Shown: positions 8,736 through 64,000 of the stretch, piece by piece
Position numbering within the stretch: the stretch's first letter is position 1
Layout of the letters: each line of letters opens with the position of its first letter
Source of the DNA: an uncultured Gammaproteobacteria bacterium
GTDB taxonomy: Bacteria; Patescibacteriota; Patescibacteriia; SBBC01; CAIJZX01
Assembly (NCBI GenBank): GCA_964383765.1
Contig: CAYLHT010000003.1
Span: 6,328 to 70,327 of the forward strand
DNA: 64,000 nucleotides
Direction of reading: 5' to 3'
Made by a program: the position numbers and the translations under genes
Notes under the pieces: generated by a model
Databases searched by the model: none
What the model saw: only the letters and a program-made list of their open reading frames with translations
What the model was told of the DNA's origin: nothing

Positions 8736-9056
8736 CTATGTTAAAAACGACGAGGCTTCAATTTCTTGCCACTCTCCGTTAACTTTTCGTAGCGCAGTCA
8801 GCTCCGACACTTCTTCATCCGGGCTGTATTCATAGCTCACGCTGGCCGCCGTGCCGACCCGCCGGCCGCCCATAGCTTTTTTACCGATAATCCGCGGCCG
8901 GGTGACGAATTCTAGACGAATCTCCCCGACCGGTCCCGTAAATTCAATGAACTCAAGTCGGCCCGGTTCTTCGTCCAAGGGTTGTTCACCACGTTCGTTC
9001 ACAGTAAACCGATCTTGAATCGTTCCGATCAAATCAAGCCAGCGTTCTCGAGTCAT
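8736..9056 (-). CDS. Hypothetical protein
   Basis: ORF only; tightly packed between mutM and the DedA-like gene. Confidence 0.3.
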   Translation of the reverse strand: MTRERWLDLIGTIQDRFTVNERGEQPLDEEPGRLEFIEFTGPVGEIRLEFVTRPRIIGKKAMGGRRVGTAASVSYEYSPDEEVSELTALRKVNGEWQEIEASSFLT

Positions 9057-9790
9057 ACCTGCTTGTTGTTATCGAGTAACCGATGCATAATTTTTGTCCA
9101 ATCGAGACGGAACATGATATACGCGATAACGGCAATTCCCCCAATCGTCAGAATTTGAGTGATTAAACCAGTCGTGGTCGCGGCTAAACCAGTGTTCAGT
9201 TGATGCGAAATCACAAAACTCGAATAGGTCACGACCCATCCGGCCATGATTTTTCCGAGCGTTGAGAACAACCACGCCCGCCAGACCGGATACTTGAGCA
9301 TGCCGAGCGGAATCATAATCAAGTCGTCCGGCAACGGGGTCGAGCCAAAAATCAGCAAGAAGATAATGATCATGCCTGGCCGTTCGTGTAAAATGCGTTC
9401 CATCGCGTCATAGGTTTCTGGTTTTTTGCGGTGAAACCAGTTCGACCCCCATCGCCCAACGATATAGCCAAACAACTGACCAATCCCGGCTCCGAGTCCC
9501 ATCAACAAGCCCAACCAAAACGGACTCAATCCCTGAGTTGCGAGGAAAAAGATAATCACCGTATATGGAAGGAAAACTGTGGCACTGGTGCTGCCAATCA
9601 AGGCCGAGAAAAAAGCTCCGGCGTACCCATACCGCAATGCGACATGCGTCCACGAATCGGTCAGATGACCATAGACTGTTGCGATCAGGGGAACACTCGT
9701 GATACCGATGCCGAGCAAAATCAGGATCACGAGCACAGTGATGACCCCCATTTCCGCTCGCCCGAACTTAAATGGTTTGAAATGAATCAT
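9053..9790 (-). CDS. DedA/TVP38-like membrane protein
   Basis: Multi-TM protein with the DedA-like motif region (FGSTPLPDDLIMIPLGMLKYP). Confidence 0.4.
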   Translation of the reverse strand: MIHFKPFKFGRAEMGVITVLVILILLGIGITSVPLIATVYGHLTDSWTHVALRYGYAGAFFSALIGSTSATVFLPYTVIIFFLATQGLSPFWLGLLMGLGAGIGQLFGYIVGRWGSNWFHRKKPETYDAMERILHERPGMIIIFLLIFGSTPLPDDLIMIPLGMLKYPVWRAWLFSTLGKIMAGWVVTYSSFVISHQLNTGLAATTTGLITQILTIGGIAVIAYIMFRLDWTKIMHRLLDNNKQV

Positions 9791-11827: not shown

Positions 11828-11900
11828 CGGGGTATAGCGCAGTTGGTAGCGCGCACGCTTCGGGTGCGTGAGGTCCCGAGTTCGAGTCTCGGTACCCCGA
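11828..11900 (+). tRNA. tRNA-Pro (anticodon CGG); the precursor has a 6-bp extension of the acceptor stem (CCCTGT/ACAGGG)
   Basis: Manual cloverleaf: acceptor CGGGGTA/TACCCCG, D-arm GCGC-AGTTGGTA-GCGC, anticodon loop TTCGGGT, T-arm CCGAG-TTCGAGT-CTCGG. Confidence 0.85.
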
Positions 11901-13285: not shown

Positions 13286-13707
13286 ACAAAGACGCGACCA
13301 TACCTTTGCCCCGCTGGGGCCAAATTGTTATTCAAATTGTGGTCTACGCGACAGTCGTTGGTTATGCCGTATTCCATTTGTCTCATCATTCCCACGCCAT
13401 CAAACTACCGGCCCAGGCTTGCGCCGGATCTGGTCAAGCGATCATGATTACTTTTACTGACACGGCGATTGCTCCAAGTCCAATTCAACTCCAACGCTGC
13501 GACCGCGTCACGATCATCAATCGTGGCCACCTGTCGATCAAGCCGGCGCTTGGCCCGCACGAACAGCACCTTGTCTACCCTACCTTCCGTGAACAGATTC
13601 TCCGGCCCGGACAATCGATGCAGTTCCAAGCGAGCGTGCCTGGTCAGTTTGAATTGCATGACCACGTGGCAGATAAACTTGAAACTGAGGTGACCATCGC
13701 AAAATGA
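13282..13707 (+). CDS. Hypothetical protein with an N-terminal TM
   Basis: ORF, ATGA-coupled to uppS. Confidence 0.35.
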   Translation: MNKDATIPLPRWGQIVIQIVVYATVVGYAVFHLSHHSHAIKLPAQACAGSGQAIMITFTDTAIAPSPIQLQRCDRVTIINRGHLSIKPALGPHEQHLVYPTFREQILRPGQSMQFQASVPGQFELHDHVADKLETEVTIAK

Positions 13708-58737: not shown

Positions 58738-59439
58738 CTAAAACTGTTTCAAGAAATCGAGCTTGCCGCTGTAAAACAGTCTGACGTCGGGCACGCCGTA
58801 CTCAAGTAACGCTAATCGATCAAGACCCATCCCAAAGGCAAAACCTTGCCAGTCCTTTGGATCAAGTCCCATGTTGGTGATCACGGTCGGATGGACGAGG
58901 CCAGCCCCGAGAATTTCGAGCCACTGCTTTTTGCCATTGCGTTCCCATTCCACATCCAGCTCAATCCCTGGTTCCACGAATGGAAAAAAGCTTGGTCGGA
59001 CCCGTGATTTTTTTTCGGGATAGAGTTTGTGAATGAATGCATTCAACGTCGTCACTAAATTCGCCATGGAGACGTTCTGATCAACTAAAACTCCGTCACA
59101 TTGATGGAACATCGACTCATGCGTGGCGTCGGTCGCTTCATGCCGATAGACTTTACCAATTTCAACCACCTTGAATGGCGGTTTCGCGCCGTGGGTTTTC
59201 GGCCAGCGGAGTTGGACGTTTGAGGAATGCGTTCGCAAGACCAAGTCTGGACGATCTTTGATAAAAAAGGTGTCCTGAACATCGCGGGCTGGATGATCTT
59301 TAGGAACATTCAAGCCATCGAAGTTGAACCACTGCGTTTCAAGTTCAGGATTTTGGGCGATGTCATAGCCAAAACTCCGCCAGATCTCGAGCACCCGGCG
59401 GCTGAATTGGGTCAAGGGGTGAAGGTGGCCGCGGTCCAT
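58738..59439 (-). CDS. pheS: Phenylalanyl-tRNA synthetase alpha subunit, catalytic core only (no N-terminal coiled-coil domain)
   Basis: Class II motifs (…HPARDVQDTFFI…FRHEATDATHESMFHQCDGV…GAGLVHP…GFAFGMGLDRLA). Confidence 0.8.
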   Translation of the reverse strand: MDRGHLHPLTQFSRRVLEIWRSFGYDIAQNPELETQWFNFDGLNVPKDHPARDVQDTFFIKDRPDLVLRTHSSNVQLRWPKTHGAKPPFKVVEIGKVYRHEATDATHESMFHQCDGVLVDQNVSMANLVTTLNAFIHKLYPEKKSRVRPSFFPFVEPGIELDVEWERNGKKQWLEILGAGLVHPTVITNMGLDPKDWQGFAFGMGLDRLALLEYGVPDVRLFYSGKLDFLKQF

Positions 59440-59442
59440 AGT

Positions 59443-59931
59443 TTACGAAAGCGCGTGATCGGTTCGTTTGGGTTGGTTCGATTGTCCGGCCAAGAAAAAC
59501 ACTTCGATCACGATCACCAGCAGGCTTAAACTAATTCCTGACCAAATATTCAACCAGCGCGCTCCCTGCAACATCAACCCGATGATGGCACCGCTGCTGA
59601 TCAAAGTGGCTTGCCGCAAAGCTGTGCCAACTTGTCGGAACAAGACCTGTTCTTTTTCCAGCCACATGCGCAAGAAAAACCCAATCAGTGTGATGGTACC
59701 CAGCAAACTCAGCCACAAGCTCAAGTAAAACAAAGCCAGTGCCCCAGCCCCTCCTGTTTGGGGGTCAAGCGTCATCAGCACTATGGTCCACGTTCCCCAC
59801 GACAACAAAGTCCCAACAGACAGGAAGATAATAAACCTTATCAGCGACATAGCTGGGCATGAGTATACTGATTTCTTGGCGATTTGACAACTTTTCATCT
59901 CAGGAGTAGACCGGGAGAAGAGTCCTTTCAT
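59443..59931 (-). CDS. Hypothetical membrane protein (4 TM)
   Basis: ORF with hydrophobic helices. Confidence 0.35.
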   Translation of the reverse strand: MKGLFSRSTPEMKSCQIAKKSVYSCPAMSLIRFIIFLSVGTLLSWGTWTIVLMTLDPQTGGAGALALFYLSLWLSLLGTITLIGFFLRMWLEKEQVLFRQVGTALRQATLISSGAIIGLMLQGARWLNIWSGISLSLLVIVIEVFFLAGQSNQPKRTDHALS

Positions 59932-59957: not shown

Positions 59958-60500
59958 GTGTTGCGGATGACGCAGATTGGTGGTATCACCGAGTTCAGAC
60001 AAGTCATCGTCAAGCCGGAAGTACTGGTCGTTCCAAGCAAGATCGGTGGTCGGCTACCAAGTGACGGGATCAGTTGGCGCGTTCCGGTCAGTCCAAACGC
60101 GCCGGGCGCCATCCTCCCCCTGCTCGACGACTACTTGCTGGGGAAACACGAGTTGCTGGAAATGTTTGTCGCGCGTGTAGCGCACGTTGCTTCGGAAGCC
60201 TTGATCAATGCCGGTCGGTACGGTCTACCGGGCAGCGAGATGCAGGTCGGATGTAAAGTTGTCGGATTTGGTGACACCCGGCGCTGCACTGTCCAGGTGT
60301 TCCACTATGTCGCCCCGACGGTTGAGGTCTTTCCGCAGGGAACTGACATCCCCGCCCCCGATCAACAAGAGGCTTTAGAGAGAGGGGGTCGAGGCCTACC
60401 GATCATGAAGCAACGCGCCGACAGCTTCGCACTCGAAGACTTGCCTGGCAACGCCAAGGAAGTTACGCTGTCGTTCGACCTGAACAGTCCTATCCGCTAG
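59958..60500 (+). CDS. Anti-sigma-factor-like serine kinase (GHKL HATPase_c_2, RsbW/SpoIIAB-like)
   Basis: C-terminal ERGGRGLPIMKQRADSFALE matches the G-box region of RsbW-type kinases; no STAS partner is seen nearby. Confidence 0.45.
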   Translation: MLRMTQIGGITEFRQVIVKPEVLVVPSKIGGRLPSDGISWRVPVSPNAPGAILPLLDDYLLGKHELLEMFVARVAHVASEALINAGRYGLPGSEMQVGCKVVGFGDTRRCTVQVFHYVAPTVEVFPQGTDIPAPDQQEALERGGRGLPIMKQRADSFALEDLPGNAKEVTLSFDLNSPIR

Positions 60501-60589: not shown

Positions 60590-60619
60590 TTGACAGTCCC
60601 GCTCTACGCCTGGTACTGT
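60590..60619 (+). promoter_or_regulatory. sigma70-like promoter TTGACA-18-TACTGT upstream of the candidate ncRNA
   Basis: Same hexamer pattern as the promoters at 25030 and 54419. Confidence 0.5.
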
Positions 60620-60625
60620 GCTCGA

Positions 60626-60885
60626 GGTTTGGTGGGCATGTAGCTCAATATAATGACACACGGGGATTCACACAGAGCGCTCCGTCGCGAGGACGGGGAG
60701 GTTGCTGGACAGCGCGCCAGCCATGCCCGCCGTAATGTACCGTGGTGGTGATGTGACTGAGTCTGGCGAAAGAAACCGGCCTGTGGATGCGTATTCGTGT
60801 GGGCCGCTGTGGAGATCGTAACGATGGGAGGCGATCCATCGTGCTCCGCTACCGGAGGTTCGAATCCTCCCTCACCACTGCGTTC
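60626..60885 (+). ncRNA. Candidate ~250-nt structured RNA whose 5' end (UGGUGGG) pairs with its 3' end (CUCACCA) next to a canonical T-arm (GGAGG-UUCGAAU-CCUCC); that is, a tRNA-like terminal domain (tmRNA-like architecture, but no tag ORF found)
   Basis: Promoter, 7-bp acceptor-like pairing with a G-U, a perfect T-arm, an internal hairpin CGATGG-GAGGCGAT-CCATCG, and no long ORF. Confidence 0.35.
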
Positions 60886-60986
60886 TTTTGACGGGATGGC
60901 CGAGACTCGAAGGCCGCGGCGTGAAAAACCGTGTTTCGTCGGTGAATCCGACTCCCGTCTCCAATGTTCTGTCTCAAATCAGATCG

Positions 60987-61063
60987 AGCCCCTCTAGCTC
61001 AGAGGTAGAGCGCCTGGGCGCGTCATCAACCAGGAGGTCTGCGGTTCGAATCCGCAGAGGGGC
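60987..61063 (+). tRNA. Non-canonical tRNA-like gene: normal acceptor, D and T arms, but a 12-nt anticodon loop (GCGCGTCATCAA) on a perfect CCTGG/CCAGG stem
   Basis: Manual cloverleaf; 77 nt; no encoded CCA. Possibly CAT or GTC in the loop; a 5-nt insertion or pseudogene. Confidence 0.45.
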
Positions 61064-61076
61064 TCAAGATTTCTTT

Positions 61077-61152
61077 AGGGCTGGTCGCTCAACAGGCTAG
61101 AGCACCGGGCACTAACCCCCGGAGGTAGGAGGTTCGAGTCCTCCCCAGCCCA
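61077..61152 (+). tRNA. Non-canonical tRNA-like gene: acceptor with one bulge, 9-nt D-loop, and an 8-nt anticodon loop CACUAACC (central CUA) on a perfect CCGGG/CCCGG stem
   Basis: Manual cloverleaf; T-arm GGAGG-TTCGAGT-CCTCC; discriminator A. Confidence 0.4.
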
Positions 61153-61157
61153 CAACT

Positions 61158-61185
61158 TCCCTGGGTCATCACGACCAGGGATTTT
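61158..61185 (+). terminator. Rho-independent terminator (CCCTGG-TCATCACGA-CCAGGG + ATTTTT) after the tRNA-like genes
   Basis: Hairpin plus T-run read directly. Confidence 0.65.
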
Positions 61186-61186
61186 T

Positions 61187-64000
61187 CTATACCGCTCTAA
61201 ATTCGCAAATCTCCCGGTAATCACAAAACTTACACACCATTTCACTCGGTGTAGCTCGGAAATCACCGGAGTGAATTTTTTTGATGGTTGAGCTGACCCA
61301 CTCTTTTGCTGCGGCTGAATCTTTTTCCGTCGGAGTCATTGTCCGCGATTCATTTTCATCAATAAAGTAATACTCGAGCTCCTTCACTTCAGCGTTGAGA
61401 ATATTTGGATCTTGCACGGCCAAGGCGTAAATCAGTAACTGATACTTATCATCTTTTTCGAACTTTTCCTTAACCTTCCCGGTTTTGTAATCCACGATTT
61501 TCACTTCGGGTTTTTCATTGGTTCCACCAATTTGATCAATTCGATCGACAGCTCCATTCACAACAAACTCATCAACTTTCAGATTGAACACTTGTTCTAG
61601 CCTGAGAACATTCGGCATAGCCTTGAGTATTTTCGCATACCACTCGGTCAATGCCTGTTTGCCCTTGTCATAATATTCATTCTTCAATTTCTTTTTCGGA
61701 TACCATTCATCGATAAAGCACCGATCGTACATGGTCAGCAACTCTTCTTCGCTTACAGTTTGACCGTCTTTGGCCCGCTCTTTCCAGAGCGCGAAAAAGT
61801 TGAACAGTGTTTTGTGAACTGACGAACCATACGATAATGCATAGCTCCCCTTCTTCGGAACTTGAAGCACAAAAGCGTAGCGGTATTTCCAGGGACAATC
61901 GTTGTAGGTTGAGAGCTTAGTGAAACTGTATTGTTTTTCACGCGCGACGTACGCAACCACTTCTTTTTTCTGTTTGGGTGTGGGCTTGAATTCACGGGCC
62001 GGTAATGGCAATTTCTTCTCGGCCGCTACGGGTGGTTTCAGTAAACCCAGCTCATACATAAATGCTGACGGTTTTTTCCGACGCTGACCACCGTAATCTT
62101 CGGCTAAGGTAAAAAACACACCGTTCCGAGCCCGCGTGATCGCGACGTACATCAAGCGTCGTTCTTCTTGGACGTGCGCGTCACCCGTGGGTAAGATTTC
62201 ACGTACTAAAGCATCCGGCACTGGAATCGGATCTTTACGATCCATGCCTGGAAAGCGCTGTTCGACAACATTACCGATAAACACGTATGGAAATTCGAGT
62301 CCTTTGGCCGAATGGATCGTCATAATTTTGATTGTGTCCGGCCCGGACGATTCCAGGTCATGCTCAAGTCCGCCGGCGTCACCTGACTCAGTGACATGGT
62401 CAATGTATTTCAGAAACGATTTGACCGTCGCTGGCCGTTCACCTTGTTGAAAAGTTTCAATAACTTTAAAGAGTTGTTTCAAGTAACTTGTCTGTTCATG
62501 CGTTTCCGCGGTTTCTTTTTTCGTAATCTCTTGCAAATATCCAGAATCATTCAGGAATTGGAGGAGTACTTCACCAACAGATTTTGTGTTGGCTAACTCA
62601 GTGTGAGCCTGAATTAGGCTTTTGATTTTTTTGACGCCGGCCCGAGTTGCATCGGAAATAGTGATGTCATCATGCAGCAATTGCTCATACAACGACCGAT
62701 TTTTCTTTTTGGCTTGATAGGAAAGTTCGACGACATCACCGTGATCAATCCCGAACACTGGAATAGCCAGTACGCGATACAACGCCGCGCTTTCGTGATA
62801 ATTATCAAGCAACCGTAAATACGCTAACAGGTCGATCACCAACGGTTTCGTGAATAATCCCCGCGCCGCTAAGAACACGTGCGGCATTCCCCGACGTTCG
62901 AATTCATTGATAAAAATTTGGGCGTGATCGTTGGCACGAACCAAAACACAAAATGAATCCCAACCCACGACGTTCCCCTCCTTGTCTAAGGAGGGGTGGC
63001 CGGAGGCCGGGGTGGTCAGGGCGCGCGATCGAAGTTCCTCAACCTTATCCGCCACCGCGCGTGCCTCCGCCTCTTGTGTATCAACATGAATCACGCCGAT
63101 CTCCCCATTTCCCTCTCGCTGCGCCTTCAATTTCTTCACAATCGCCATGCCGCCGAACAGTTCTTTCTTCGCTTCCAATCGGTCCGGATTATTATGTTGG
63201 ATAAAGGTATGGGCTAAATCGAGAATCGACTGCTTGGTTCGATAGTTTTTCGTGAGTACAATCACTTCGGCGTCGGCAAAGTCCTTTTTGAATTCAAGGA
63301 TATTTGACACAGATGCTCCACGAAACTTATAGATCGATTGGTCATCATCACCGACCACGGTCAAATTGTTCCGTGGCTTGGCTAGACGTTTAATCAACTC
63401 GTACTGCGCCCAGTTCGTGTCTTGGAATTCGTCAACCAGAATGTATTGGAATTGCTGCTGGTATTTTTTGAGAATTGCCGGCCGTTCGCGCAACAAACGT
63501 AACGTGTACAAGATCAGGTCACCAAAGTCTAAGGCGTTGTTATCGAGCAATAATTGATTGTATGTATCATAGGCTTTTGCAAGTTCCATTATTCGGGCGG
63601 CCTCAGCTTTCTCTTCGTCAGTAGTTTTGTTTTTCGACAGAGTCTTTGCGTATTTCAAATATTCCGCCGGTGAAATGTCTTCATCTTTAAGTCGCGAAAA
63701 ATGTTTGACCAGCGCGGTAATGAATTTCGTCGGATTCCCAAGCGGGCGATAATAGTCCAAATCAAAGTCATCAAGATGTTCCCGAATCAATAGCCACTGG
63801 TCGGTTTGGGACAACAACTTGAAGTCATTCGACAACCCAATATCGAGTGCGTGTTCTTTCAGTAACCGCTGTCCAAGGCTGTGAAATGTCATCACCCATA
63901 GATCAACATACCCAAACGGTAAAATCCGCTCGACCCGATCCTGCATTTCACCGGCAGCTTTATTGGTAAACGTCAACGCTAAAATATTATCCGACGGCAC
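61187..64000 (-). CDS. UvrD/PcrA-family ATP-dependent helicase fused to a C-terminal PD-(D/E)XK/Cas4-like nuclease domain with a Cys cluster; N-terminus lies beyond the window end. Carries an in-frame palindromic insertion.
   Basis: Helicase motifs (LALTFTNKAAGEM, ILVDEFQDTN, VVGDDDQSIY, TIHSAKGLEF), a C-terminal ...CKFCDYREIC Fe-S-like cluster, and the insert at 62970-63025. Confidence 0.75.
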   Translation of the reverse strand: MPSDNILALTFTNKAAGEMQDRVERILPFGYVDLWVMTFHSLGQRLLKEHALDIGLSNDFKLLSQTDQWLLIREHLDDFDLDYYRPLGNPTKFITALVKHFSRLKDEDISPAEYLKYAKTLSKNKTTDEEKAEAARIMELAKAYDTYNQLLLDNNALDFGDLILYTLRLLRERPAILKKYQQQFQYILVDEFQDTNWAQYELIKRLAKPRNNLTVVGDDDQSIYKFRGASVSNILEFKKDFADAEVIVLTKNYRTKQSILDLAHTFIQHNNPDRLEAKKELFGGMAIVKKLKAQREGNGEIGVIHVDTQEAEARAVADKVEELRSRALTTPASGHPSLDKEGNVVGWDSFCVLVRANDHAQIFINEFERRGMPHVFLAARGLFTKPLVIDLLAYLRLLDNYHESAALYRVLAIPVFGIDHGDVVELSYQAKKKNRSLYEQLLHDDITISDATRAGVKKIKSLIQAHTELANTKSVGEVLLQFLNDSGYLQEITKKETAETHEQTSYLKQLFKVIETFQQGERPATVKSFLKYIDHVTESGDAGGLEHDLESSGPDTIKIMTIHSAKGLEFPYVFIGNVVEQRFPGMDRKDPIPVPDALVREILPTGDAHVQEERRLMYVAITRARNGVFFTLAEDYGGQRRKKPSAFMYELGLLKPPVAAEKKLPLPAREFKPTPKQKKEVVAYVAREKQYSFTKLSTYNDCPWKYRYAFVLQVPKKGSYALSYGSSVHKTLFNFFALWKERAKDGQTVSEEELLTMYDRCFIDEWYPKKKLKNEYYDKGKQALTEWYAKILKAMPNVLRLEQVFNLKVDEFVVNGAVDRIDQIGGTNEKPEVKIVDYKTGKVKEKFEKDDKYQLLIYALAVQDPNILNAEVKELEYYFIDENESRTMTPTEKDSAAAKEWVSSTIKKIHSGDFRATPSEMVCKFCDYREICEFRAV

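What the first reader, a model, noticed from the sequence alone, without database searches (positions are those of the whole stretch)
60987..61152. Two tandem non-canonical tRNA-like genes with enlarged anticodon loops, one centred on CUA
Both fold into cloverleaves with good acceptor, D and T arms, but with aberrant anticodon arms. The first has a 12-nt loop GCGCGUCAUCAA on a perfect 5-bp stem, which is 5 nt too long. The second has an 8-nt loop CACUAACC on a perfect stem, a bulged acceptor and a 9-nt D-loop. An 8-nt loop with a central CUA is reminiscent of frameshift or amber suppressor tRNAs. They lie between the tRNA-like ncRNA and a terminator, forming one transcription unit. They could be pseudo-tRNAs, intron-containing tRNAs, or specialised/regulatory tRNA-like RNAs.
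Basis: seen in the sequence. Interest (0 to 1): 0.6.

Follow-up and report, generated by a model that had tools for sequence, protein, structure and literature searches.

The report
Anticodon-less tRNA look-alike genes
Two genes in an uncultured groundwater-type bacterium (Candidatus Kerfeldbacteria) fold like transfer RNAs but have oversized, non-standard anticodon loops; they belong to a small, fast-changing operon of tRNA-shaped RNAs that are probably kept for their shape, not for reading codons.

Summary
Window 60988-61064 (t1) and 61078-61152 (t2) are clear tRNA cloverleaves (Rfam tRNA 54.2 and 53.7 bits). Each has a perfect 5-bp anticodon stem closed by a loop of 12 nt (GCGCGUCAUCAA) or 8 nt (CACUAACC). 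The "bulged acceptor" of t2 is not real.

The organism is a Candidatus Kerfeldbacteria bacterium (CPR/Patescibacteria). Both genes are the last two of five tRNA-shaped genes (A, B, C, t1, t2) lying between a TTGACA promoter and a terminator. Relatives carry such a cluster at the same place, but its content differs in every species and it is often absent.

t2 has orthologues in two relatives. All 21 base pairs are kept, with changes on both sides at five pairs among the three t2 genes (eight when a locus tRNA-Ile is included). The "anticodon" loop differs completely (CACUAACC, GACCGAU, GCUGCGC) and none has U at the second loop position. TAG ends 14 of 52 ORFs. So t2 is not a conserved amber or quadruplet suppressor, and it is not a decaying pseudogene.

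t1 resembles tRNA-Thr(CGU) with 5 extra loop bases. No orthologue was found.

Best reading: these are non-decoding tRNA mimics, and their function is unknown. The kind (pseudo-tRNA, accessory tRNA operon) is known; this variant is undescribed.

The parts
60590..60619 (+). Promoter-like element TTGACA-N18-TACTGT, preceded by TG (extended -10), in front of the tRNA-like cluster
   Evidence: The same TTGAC[AG]-N16-18-TAnnnT arrangement lies just upstream of the cluster in 11 of 15 related loci. The generic scan missed it because the -10 hexamer matches only 3 of 6 positions.
60634..60729 (+). Element A: a tRNA-shaped RNA with a 28-nt D-loop insertion, an anticodon arm closed as a 7-bp hairpin with a 5-nt loop, and an 8-nt non-consensus T loop
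   Evidence: Seven family members were found (window, L004, L079, L082, L085, L087, L091). All acceptor, D and T pairs are intact, with compensatory changes.
60744..60880 (+). Element B: a tRNA-like RNA of about 135 nt with a class-II-like shape, a canonical T arm GGAGGUUCGAAUCCUCC, an 8-bp acceptor stem, and much enlarged central and variable arms
   Evidence: Relatives occur in at least 9 loci. The L085 copy scores 44.4 bits on the tRNA-Sec model, below its 47-bit cutoff.
60890..60963 (+). Element C: a degenerate tRNA-like RNA with a 9-nt loop CGUGAAAAA, a 5-nt T loop and an encoded U-CCA end
   Evidence: An orthologue in L003 (about 9012-9084, minus strand) has the loop CCUGAAAA and the same 5-nt T loop.
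60988..61064 (+). t1: a tRNA-Thr-like cloverleaf with a 12-nt anticodon loop GCGCGUCAUCAA. No CCA is encoded (U73 is followed by CAAG).
61078..61152 (+). t2: a tRNA-shaped RNA with an 8-nt loop CACUAACC. No CCA is encoded (A73 is followed by CAAC). It belongs to a conserved family with L079 7007-7082 and L081 3508-3582.
61159..61186 (+). Intrinsic terminator: hairpin CCCUGG...CCAGGG followed by UUUUU. It abuts the stop codon of the convergent helicase gene.
   Evidence: z = -3.2. Comparable hairpin plus T-run ends close the clusters in relatives.

Best explanation
t1 and t2 are tRNA-derived genes that no longer act as codon readers. They are the last two cistrons of a transcript of about 560 nt (promoter at about 60590, terminator at about 61186) that carries five tRNA-shaped RNAs: A, B, C, t1 and t2.

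Inferred steps: the precursor is cut by the ordinary tRNA-processing enzymes (RNase P, and RNase Z or exonucleases), and CCA is added where it is not encoded. This would release stable L-shaped RNAs.

Shown for t2: the acceptor, D, anticodon and T stems and the elbow nucleotides are under purifying selection, while the anticodon loop is unconstrained. I infer that its function lies in the tRNA body. It could be a tRNA mimic, decoy or ligand for a tRNA-binding factor, or an acceptor-stem substrate. It is not a partner for codon pairing.

t1 is most likely a tRNA-Thr(CGU) copy whose loop has grown by 5 nt. It is either a recently disabled gene or a new recruit to the same class of mimic.

The whole cluster is an accessory, fast-evolving locus of Kerfeldbacteria.
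For: - Both genes have a real cloverleaf with intact tertiary nucleotides: U8, A14, G18G19 and the T loop UUCGAAU/UUCGAGU.
- The loops are 12 and 8 nt, and neither has U at the second loop position.
- t2 orthologues are L079 7007-7082 and L081 3508-3582. A model built from the three scores them 88-93 bits; the next best hit is 65.5 bits, a tRNA-Ile(GAU) in the same locus of L085.
- On the loop-trimmed alignment (the three t2 genes plus that tRNA-Ile), 100% of 84 pair cells are paired. Eight pairs change on both sides, five of them among the three t2 genes. None of 500 shuffles reaches the observed value.
- The three t2 loops are unrelated: CACUAACC, GACCGAU and GCUGCGC. The flanking spacers are unalignable.
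- Sister family A (7 members) replaces the anticodon loop with a closed hairpin of variable length while keeping every other stem. This shows that non-decoding tRNA shapes are the rule in this operon.
- A promoter-like element lies upstream of the cluster in 11 of 15 loci, and most clusters end in a hairpin plus T run.
- TAG, TGA and TAA all serve as stops: 14, 14 and 24 of 52 ORFs. The same holds in relatives.
- t1 shares G1-C72, C2-G71, U73 and the variable loop AGGUC with the window's own tRNA-Thr(UGU) and tRNA-Thr(GGU). Its loop contains CGU. Relatives L085 and L002 carry tRNA-Thr(CGU) in this locus.
Against: - There are no expression data; transcription, processing and stability are inferred.
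- Only three t2 sequences exist, and they come from related species.
- The t2 discriminator base (A versus G) and pair 2:71 differ between species, which argues against a conserved aminoacylation identity.
- t1 has no orthologue, so selection on it cannot be shown.
- ACG makes up 32% of Thr codons in the window. If no canonical tRNA-Thr(CGU) exists elsewhere in the genome, t1 might still be needed as a decoder.
- The cluster is missing from about 40% of related loci, so any function is dispensable.
- No interacting partner was identified. The adjacent HATPase_c_2-like gene occurs both with and without the cluster.
Confidence: 0.58

Rival explanations
1. Both are decaying tRNA pseudogenes: duplicates or former housekeeping tRNAs (Thr-CGU, perhaps Ile-GAU) inactivated by small insertions in the anticodon loop and now drifting neutrally.
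For: - The locus is highly plastic and often lacks the cluster altogether.
- t1 is unique to this genome in my sample.
- The t1 loop looks like two micro-duplications (GCGCG, UCAUCA).
- Some cluster members in relatives are clearly degenerate, for example L001 'SeC', where only 3 of 5 anticodon-stem pairs remain.
Against: - t2 keeps all 21 pairs in three species whose neighbouring protein is only 52% identical and whose spacers are unalignable. Five pairs among the three t2 genes change on both sides.
- All stems of t1 are perfect.
- CPR genomes are small and tend to delete dead DNA (general knowledge).
Confidence: 0.22
2. t2 is a working suppressor: an amber (CUA) or quadruplet (CUAA, codon UUAG) decoder with an 8-nt loop, as in sufD/sufJ-type frameshift suppressors or yeast mitochondrial tRNA-Thr(UAG). 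t1 would be an exotic decoder.
For: - An 8-nt loop with a central CUA sits on an otherwise perfect tRNA body.
- 8-nt loops can decode (PMC7609411).
- A relative (L003 8910-8982) carries a canonical-looking CUA tRNA in the same operon.
Against: - The loop is not conserved in t2 orthologues, which have 7-nt GACCGAU and GCUGCGC.
- No register gives U33 together with a purine at 37.
- TAG terminates 27% of ORFs, including pheS, pheT and the flanking helicase.
- A 12-nt loop has no precedent as a decoder.
Confidence: 0.05
3. They are true tRNAs whose extra loop nucleotides are removed or tolerated. The extra bases would be a tiny intron, an editing target, or the footprint of a lost group I intron at position 36/37, so the mature RNA would be tRNA-Thr(CGU) or another canonical species.
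For: - Patescibacteria often carry group I introns in tRNA anticodon loops, including tRNA-Thr at 36/37 (PMC13011429).
- The extra CAUC of t1 lies between CGU and AA.
- ACG is a common codon.
- Relatives carry tRNA-likes with 48-105 nt insertions in the T loop.
Against: - 5 nt and 1 nt cannot self-splice.
- No bacterial enzymatic tRNA splicing is known.
- No single excision from the t2 loop yields a loop with U33 and R37.
- ARAGORN's 5-nt 'intron' solution gives an unused Asp(AUC) anticodon.
Confidence: 0.05
4. The tRNA-like genes mainly serve as integration or recombination targets (att sites) of a genomic-island hot spot. Their odd loops would be scars of insertion and excision events.
For: - The interval between the HATPase-like gene and the helicase holds different cargo in different species: a GIY-YIG-like gene, purM-like, acyltransferase and methyltransferase-like genes, and small ORFs.
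- L087 has a 29-nt direct repeat that duplicates the 3' half of B.
- Bacillus cereus tRNA-Other likewise flanks an island (PMC3399842).
Against: - No integrase gene lies in or next to the cluster in the window or in the loci examined.
- A conserved promoter and terminator, and compensatory evolution of all four stems, point to an RNA-level function.
Confidence: 0.08

Closest known systems
Canonical bacterial elongator tRNA (Rfam RF00005), specifically tRNA-Thr(CGU) for t1 and possibly tRNA-Ile(GAU) for t2
   Same: Both have the 7/5 acceptor/T geometry, a 4-bp D stem, a 5-bp anticodon stem, a 5-nt variable loop, and U8, A14, G18G19 and the T-loop consensus. t1 shares G1-C72, C2-G71 and U73 with the genome's own tRNA-Thr genes.
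   Different: The anticodon loops are 12 and 8 nt instead of 7. There is no U33/R37 frame. The loop is not conserved among t2 orthologues. CCA is not encoded.
Pseudo-tRNA 'tRNA-Other' of Bacillus cereus (PMC3399842)
   Same: It is a chromosomal tRNA-shaped gene that does not work in translation, sits next to variable DNA, and has a regulatory or physiological role.
   Different: It is a single gene in a Firmicute with a normal-sized loop. Here there is a multi-gene operon of several distinct tRNA-like families in CPR bacteria, and no phenotype is known.
Accessory tRNA arrays, such as the cryptic trn operon of Anabaena (PMC8421152) and prokaryotic tRNA arrays (PMC4758250)
   Same: These are extra, patchily distributed, co-transcribed tRNA gene clusters with their own promoter. 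They contain some pseudogenes and may have non-canonical roles.
   Different: Arrays hold 20-40 mostly canonical tRNAs that can be aminoacylated. This cluster has 2-5 genes, most with aberrant anticodon arms, D loops or T loops.
8-nt-loop decoders: +1 frameshift suppressors (sufD and sufJ, from my own knowledge) and yeast mitochondrial tRNA-Thr(UAG) (PMC7609411)
   Same: They have an 8-nt anticodon loop on a normal tRNA body.
   Different: Those keep U33 and a purine 3' of the anticodon, and their loop is functionally fixed. The t2 loop lacks these features and varies between species.
tRNA mimics without an anticodon: the tmRNA tRNA-like domain, bacterial Y RNA YrlA (PMC4201824) and mascRNA
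   Same: They have a tRNA-like acceptor, T and D module processed or recognised by tRNA enzymes, and the anticodon region is replaced or irrelevant.
   Different: There is no sequence or model match. Here the 5' and 3' ends form the acceptor stem, as in real tRNAs. No Ro60 or SmpB context is seen.

Membership tests
tRNA (RF00005) | Cloverleaf with a 7-bp acceptor stem, D arm, 5-bp anticodon stem and 5-bp T stem, scoring above the Rfam gathering score | tested here: met
   54.2 and 53.7 bits against a 29-bit cutoff. All stems are perfectly paired.
tRNA (RF00005), as a functional decoder | A 7-nt anticodon loop with U33 and a purine at 37 framing the anticodon | tested here: not met
   The loops are GCGCGUCAUCAA (12 nt) and CACUAACC (8 nt). 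No register gives both U33 and R37.
Amber suppressor / tRNA-Pyl-like | CUA at positions 34-36 of a functional loop, in a genome where UAG is rare as a stop or is recoded | tested here: not met
   CUA sits in an 8-nt loop preceded by A. TAG ends 14 of 52 ORFs. The orthologues lack CUA.
+1 frameshift (quadruplet) suppressor tRNA | An 8-nt loop formed by a 4-base anticodon within an otherwise canonical loop, conserved where functional | tested here: not met
   The 8-nt size is met, but the second loop base is A, the 3' flank is CC, and the orthologous loops are 7 nt and unrelated.
+1 frameshift (quadruplet) suppressor tRNA | Genes that need +1 frameshifting at the cognate quadruplet (UUAG) | not tested
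   No search for frameshifted ORFs was made.
Group I intron-containing tRNA (Patescibacteria type) | An insertion of about 200 nt or more with a group I catalytic core in the anticodon loop | tested here: not met
   The extra sequence is 5 nt and 1 nt. No Intron_gpI hit was found in the window. For comparison see PMC13011429.
Neutral pseudogene | Stem-disrupting substitutions that accumulate at the same rate as in flanking non-coding DNA | tested here: not met
   This was tested for t2 only. 100% of cells are paired and 8 pairs change on both sides, while the spacers are unalignable. It is not testable for t1, which has no orthologue.
tRNA array unit (PMC4758250) | At least 20 tRNA genes at a density of at least 2 per kb | tested here: not met
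   There are five tRNA-like genes in about 0.56 kb, so the density criterion is met but the number is not.
Expressed, processed small RNA | A detectable mature transcript with defined ends, CCA addition or aminoacylation | not testable with these tools
   Only promoter-like and terminator signals are available.

The most novel reading that the evidence does not exclude
Kerfeldbacteria (CPR) maintain a dedicated, promoter-driven operon of several families of anticodon-less tRNA-shaped RNAs (A, B, C and t2, with t1 as a new recruit). In these RNAs the acceptor, T and D core is conserved by compensatory evolution, while the anticodon, variable, D-loop or T-loop modules are free to expand and change. 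This would be a previously undescribed class of tRNA mimic. It might act as a decoy against tRNA-targeting toxins or nucleases, as a ligand for tRNA-binding factors, or as a non-ribosomal aminoacyl carrier in ultra-small symbiotic bacteria.
Probability: 0.4. Interest if true: 0.7.

Novelty: new variant of a known kind. Interest (0 to 1): 0.5.

Why it matters
There are two reasons.

The first is practical. Standard tools label these genes and their relatives as tRNA-Thr, 'tRNA-???(ctaa)', tRNA-SeC, tRNA-Pyl or short-arm tRNA-Ser. In metagenome-assembled genomes such calls can be misread as evidence for suppressor tRNAs or altered genetic codes. Here the genomes use all three stop codons normally.

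The second is biological. CPR bacteria have very small genomes. Yet several lineages keep a multi-gene operon of tRNA look-alikes whose fold is under selection and whose anticodon is not. That points to a use of the tRNA shape outside decoding that has not been described for this large, uncultured branch of bacteria. It could be tested directly by small-RNA sequencing of samples where these organisms are abundant.

Tried and rejected
- **In-frame stop in pheS.** I suspected that a stop between the ORF at 59443-59931 and pheS might be suppressed by t2. The stop is TAA, and the upstream ORF is an unrelated membrane protein.
- **SelD link.** The AIRS-domain gene next to the L081 cluster could have tied element B to selenocysteine. 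It is purM-like, not SelD.
- **Phage origin.** There is no blastn match of the cluster in 50,697 phage records, and the t2 D-arm pattern gave no IMG/VR match. A 12-nt-loop stem pattern gave one IMG/VR hit (L093), but it is a plain hairpin outside any tRNA and looks like chance.
- **Spacer-like variable inserts.** A 20-nt piece of element A's D-loop insert has no exact viral match.
- **Defence-system context.** PADLOC gives only generic UvrD/GajB similarity for the AddA-like helicase and nothing for the HATPase-like gene.
- **The window's own genome beyond 64 kb.** P0001 and P0003 show the source is an NCBI contig of 93,311 bp, but exact look-ups found no record. I therefore could not check for canonical tRNA-Thr(CGU) or tRNA-Ile(GAU) elsewhere.
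- **BLAST for orthologues.** BLAST of A, B, C, t1 and t2 against all loci found only a 29-nt t2 match, so covariance models and manual parsing were needed.
- **Literature.** Searches found no description of such RNAs in CPR/Patescibacteria.

Full report
**1. The observation**

Rfam's tRNA model matches window 60988-61064 (t1, 54.2 bits) and 61078-61152 (t2, 53.7 bits), well above the 29-bit gathering score.

The alignment to the model shows perfect acceptor, D, anticodon and T stems in both. It also shows an anticodon loop of 12 nt in t1 (GCGCGUCAUCAA between CCUGG and CCAGG) and 8 nt in t2 (CACUAACC between CCGGG and CCCGG).

ARAGORN reports t2 as 'tRNA-??? (ctaa)'. It gives t1 a 7-nt loop only by mispairing the stem ('Thr cgt') or, in intron mode, by declaring a 5-nt 'intron' GCGCG ('Asp atc'). 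Neither solution is credible.

Single-sequence folds give z-scores of -2.4 and -3.0. The t2 fold is the full cloverleaf; the t1 fold keeps the anticodon stem and the 12-nt loop but not the D and T arms. One detail of the finding is wrong: t2's acceptor stem GGGCUGG/CCAGCCC is a perfect 7 bp, not bulged. Neither gene encodes CCA, whereas three of the five canonical tRNAs in the window do.

**2. Organism and local context**

The flanking AddA-like UvrD/PD-(D/E)XK helicase (61187-64000, minus strand) is 73-81% identical to proteins of Candidatus Kerfeldbacteria MAGs, which belong to the Patescibacteria/CPR.

On the other side lie a 177-aa HATPase_c_2-like gene (59958-60500, plus strand), a small membrane protein, a short-form pheS, and pheT.

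The window uses TAA, TAG and TGA as stops in 24, 14 and 14 of 52 long ORFs, so the genetic code is standard. Relatives behave the same way.

**3. t1 and t2 are part of a five-gene tRNA-like operon**

A TTGACA-N18-TACTGT promoter-like element lies at 60590-60619. Between it and a hairpin plus U-run terminator at 61159-61186 lie five genes.

- **A (60634-60729)** is tRNA-shaped. It has a 28-nt D-loop insert and a closed 7-bp "anticodon" hairpin.
- **B (60744-60880)** is a class-II-like tRNA-like RNA of about 135 nt.
- **C (60890-60963)** has a 9-nt loop, a 5-nt T loop and an encoded U-CCA end.
- **t1 and t2** follow.

**4. Comparative evidence**

I collected the same interval from relatives. Sources were GTDB genomes, JGI metagenomes, and contigs encoding close homologues of the HATPase-like protein and PheS.

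A promoter-led cluster of tRNA and tRNA-like genes, usually closed by a hairpin and T run, sits at this place in about 15 loci. These are L001-L004, L007, L008, L076, L079, L081, L082, L085-L087 and L091, plus the window itself. The promoter-like motif is present in 11 of the 15.

The cluster is absent from about ten other loci (L005, L006, L009, L010, L072-L075, L083/84, L088). Other cargo genes occupy the site there.

The content differs in every species:

- A-type and B-type RNAs recur.
- Some members look canonical: Thr-CGU and Ile-GAU in L085, Val-UAC in L003, and Lys-CUU in L082.
- There is a canonical-looking CUA tRNA in L003.
- L004, L082 and L091 have class-I tRNAs with a UGA anticodon but no long variable arm.
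- L002 and L076 have tRNA-likes with 48-105 nt inserts in the T loop.

**5. t2 is a conserved family with an unconstrained loop**

L079 7007-7082 and L081 3508-3582 are orthologues of t2. They have the same or a near-identical D loop (AACAGGCUA in L079, ACCGGGCUA in L081), nearly the same anticodon stem and the same T-loop type, and each is the last gene before the terminator.

A covariance model built from the three scores them 88-93 bits. The best non-member is the tRNA-Ile(GAU) of L085 at 65.5 bits, which hints at descent from tRNA-Ile.

I trimmed the loops to equal length so that the paired columns stay in register and added that tRNA-Ile as a fourth row. On this alignment all 84 pair cells are standard pairs. 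Eight of the 21 pairs change on both sides; five of these are among the three t2 genes (2:71, 13:22, 31:39, 50:64, 51:63). None of 500 shuffles reaches the observed values, and sliding the 3' partners destroys the signal.

The loops, in contrast, are CACUAACC, GACCGAU and GCUGCGC. The last can close further into a 5-nt loop. None has U at the second position. The spacers around the genes cannot be aligned at all, and the neighbouring HATPase-like protein is only 52% identical between the window and L079.

So the fold is under selection and the "anticodon" is not. This excludes a conserved amber or quadruplet decoder, and it argues against a drifting pseudogene.

The sister family A shows the same logic more strongly. 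Its seven members have every acceptor, D and T pair intact, with compensatory changes. Their anticodon arm is a closed hairpin of 14-33 nt.

**6. t1**

No orthologue was found. The evidence that links t1 to tRNA-Thr(CGU) is as follows:

- Its acceptor stem (G1-C72, C2-G71, C3-G70), U73, D arm and variable loop AGGUC match the window's own tRNA-Thr(UGU) and tRNA-Thr(GGU).
- Its best pairwise match is the tRNA-Thr(CGU) of L085, at 69%, a narrow lead.
- Its loop contains CGU and ends in AA.
- L085 and L002 carry Thr(CGU) in this locus.

I therefore read t1 as a Thr(CGU) gene whose loop grew by 5 nt, possibly by the micro-duplications GCGCG and UCAUCA. This is inference.

All its stems are perfect, so it is either recently disabled or recruited as a mimic. 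ACG makes up 32% of Thr codons in the window. Whether a canonical Thr(CGU) exists elsewhere in the genome therefore matters, and I could not check it.

**7. How it most likely works**

Shown:
- the tRNA fold;
- loops that cannot frame an anticodon;
- structural conservation of t2 and of A;
- promoter and terminator signals;
- patchy distribution of the cluster;
- normal use of all three stop codons.

Inferred:
- a single precursor of about 560 nt is cut by RNase P and by 3' processing enzymes into tRNA-sized RNAs;
- CCA is added;
- the products act through the tRNA body, as mimics, decoys or ligands of tRNA-binding proteins, or as acceptor-stem substrates.

The t2 discriminator base and pair 2:71 vary between species. 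This weakens the idea of a fixed aminoacylation identity. No partner protein could be tied to the cluster: the HATPase-like gene occurs with and without it, and no defence-system match was found.

**8. Comparison with what is known**

The closest precedents are these:
- the non-translating pseudo-tRNA 'tRNA-Other' of Bacillus cereus (PMC3399842);
- accessory tRNA operons and arrays (PMC8421152, PMC4758250);
- tRNA mimics such as the tmRNA tRNA-like domain and YrlA (PMC4201824);
- for loop size only, 8-nt-loop decoders (PMC7609411).

Group I introns are common in Patescibacteria tRNAs (PMC13011429), but they are full-size ribozymes, not inserts of 1-5 nt.

Literature searches found no description of tRNA-like operons in CPR bacteria.

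I rate the finding as a new variant of a known kind. Interest is moderate. It rises if expression data confirm a dedicated operon of anticodon-less tRNA mimics in these minimal genomes.

Noticed in passing
window 60634-60729 (also L004 12920-13009, L079 6763-6854, L082 3783-3869, L085 3910-3992, L087 3480-3572, L091 4764-4848): Family A is a tRNA-shaped RNA with a nearly invariant acceptor stem GGGCAUG/CAUGCCC. All acceptor, D and T pairs are kept, with compensatory changes. The anticodon arm is replaced by a closed hairpin of 14-33 nt. Some members have D-loop inserts of 24-33 nt and non-consensus T loops.
   Followed up: partly
window 60744-60880; L085 4312-4457; also L001, L002, L007, L008, L079 (two copies), L081, L087: Family B is a class-II-like tRNA-like RNA of 120-150 nt with tRNA-Tyr/Sec-like ends and a huge variable region. 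It is the most widespread member of the locus. The L085 copy scores 44.4 bits on the tRNA-Sec model (cutoff 47) and has the loop CUUCGAC.
   Followed up: partly
window 60890-60963; L003 about 9012-9084 (minus strand): Family C is a degenerate tRNA-like RNA with a 5-nt T loop, an 8-9 nt loop containing UGAAA, and an encoded U-CCA end. It is conserved between two species, with a G-C to C-G swap at pair 1:72.
   Followed up: partly
L003 8910-8982; L004 13018-13092; L082 3619-3688; L091 4679-4752: Relatives carry, in the same operon, a canonical-looking CUA (amber) tRNA with a Gln-like D arm. Three species also have class-I tRNAs with a UGA anticodon (a Ser codon) but no long variable arm and a Thr-like acceptor stem. 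These genomes still use TAG and TGA as stops.
   Followed up: partly
L002 about 13440-13620 (minus strand); L076 4965-5078 (minus strand): These are tRNA-like genes with canonical anticodon loops (CGU, CAU) but inserts of about 105 nt and 48 nt in place of the T loop. That is an insertion site not known for bacterial tRNA introns.
   Followed up: no
L087 3586-3614 and 3726-3754: A 29-nt direct repeat (90% identical), spaced 140 nt apart, duplicates the 3' half of the B-type RNA. It could be a scar of integration or recombination at a tRNA-like gene.
   Followed up: partly
window 11828-11900: A canonical tRNA-Pro(CGG) was missed by the whole-window Rfam scan in gathering mode. It scores 66 bits in a local scan and is found by ARAGORN. 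This looks like a speed-filter artefact and is worth remembering when a scan reports 'no tRNA'.
   Followed up: yes
window 58738-59439 (minus strand): PheS here is a 233-aa short form lacking the N-terminal domain. Kerfeldbacteria homologues split into forms of about 235 aa and about 325 aa. The in-frame upstream ORF (59443-59931) is an unrelated membrane protein separated from pheS by TAA.
   Followed up: partly
window 60854-60871 and 61128-61145: The T arms of B and t2 are 17/18 identical (GGAGGUUCGAAUCCUCCC versus GGAGGUUCGAGUCCUCCC). This could reflect gene conversion within the operon or could be chance.
   Followed up: no
L093 1950-2190 (IMG/VR UViG_3300031234_000027): The chance hit in a viral contig lies next to a tRNA-like 5' half (GGGCACGGUAGCUCAGAUGGU) and, about 200 nt further on, a T arm (GGCGGUUCGAAUCCGC). 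This may be an interrupted tRNA. ARAGORN finds nothing there.
   Followed up: no
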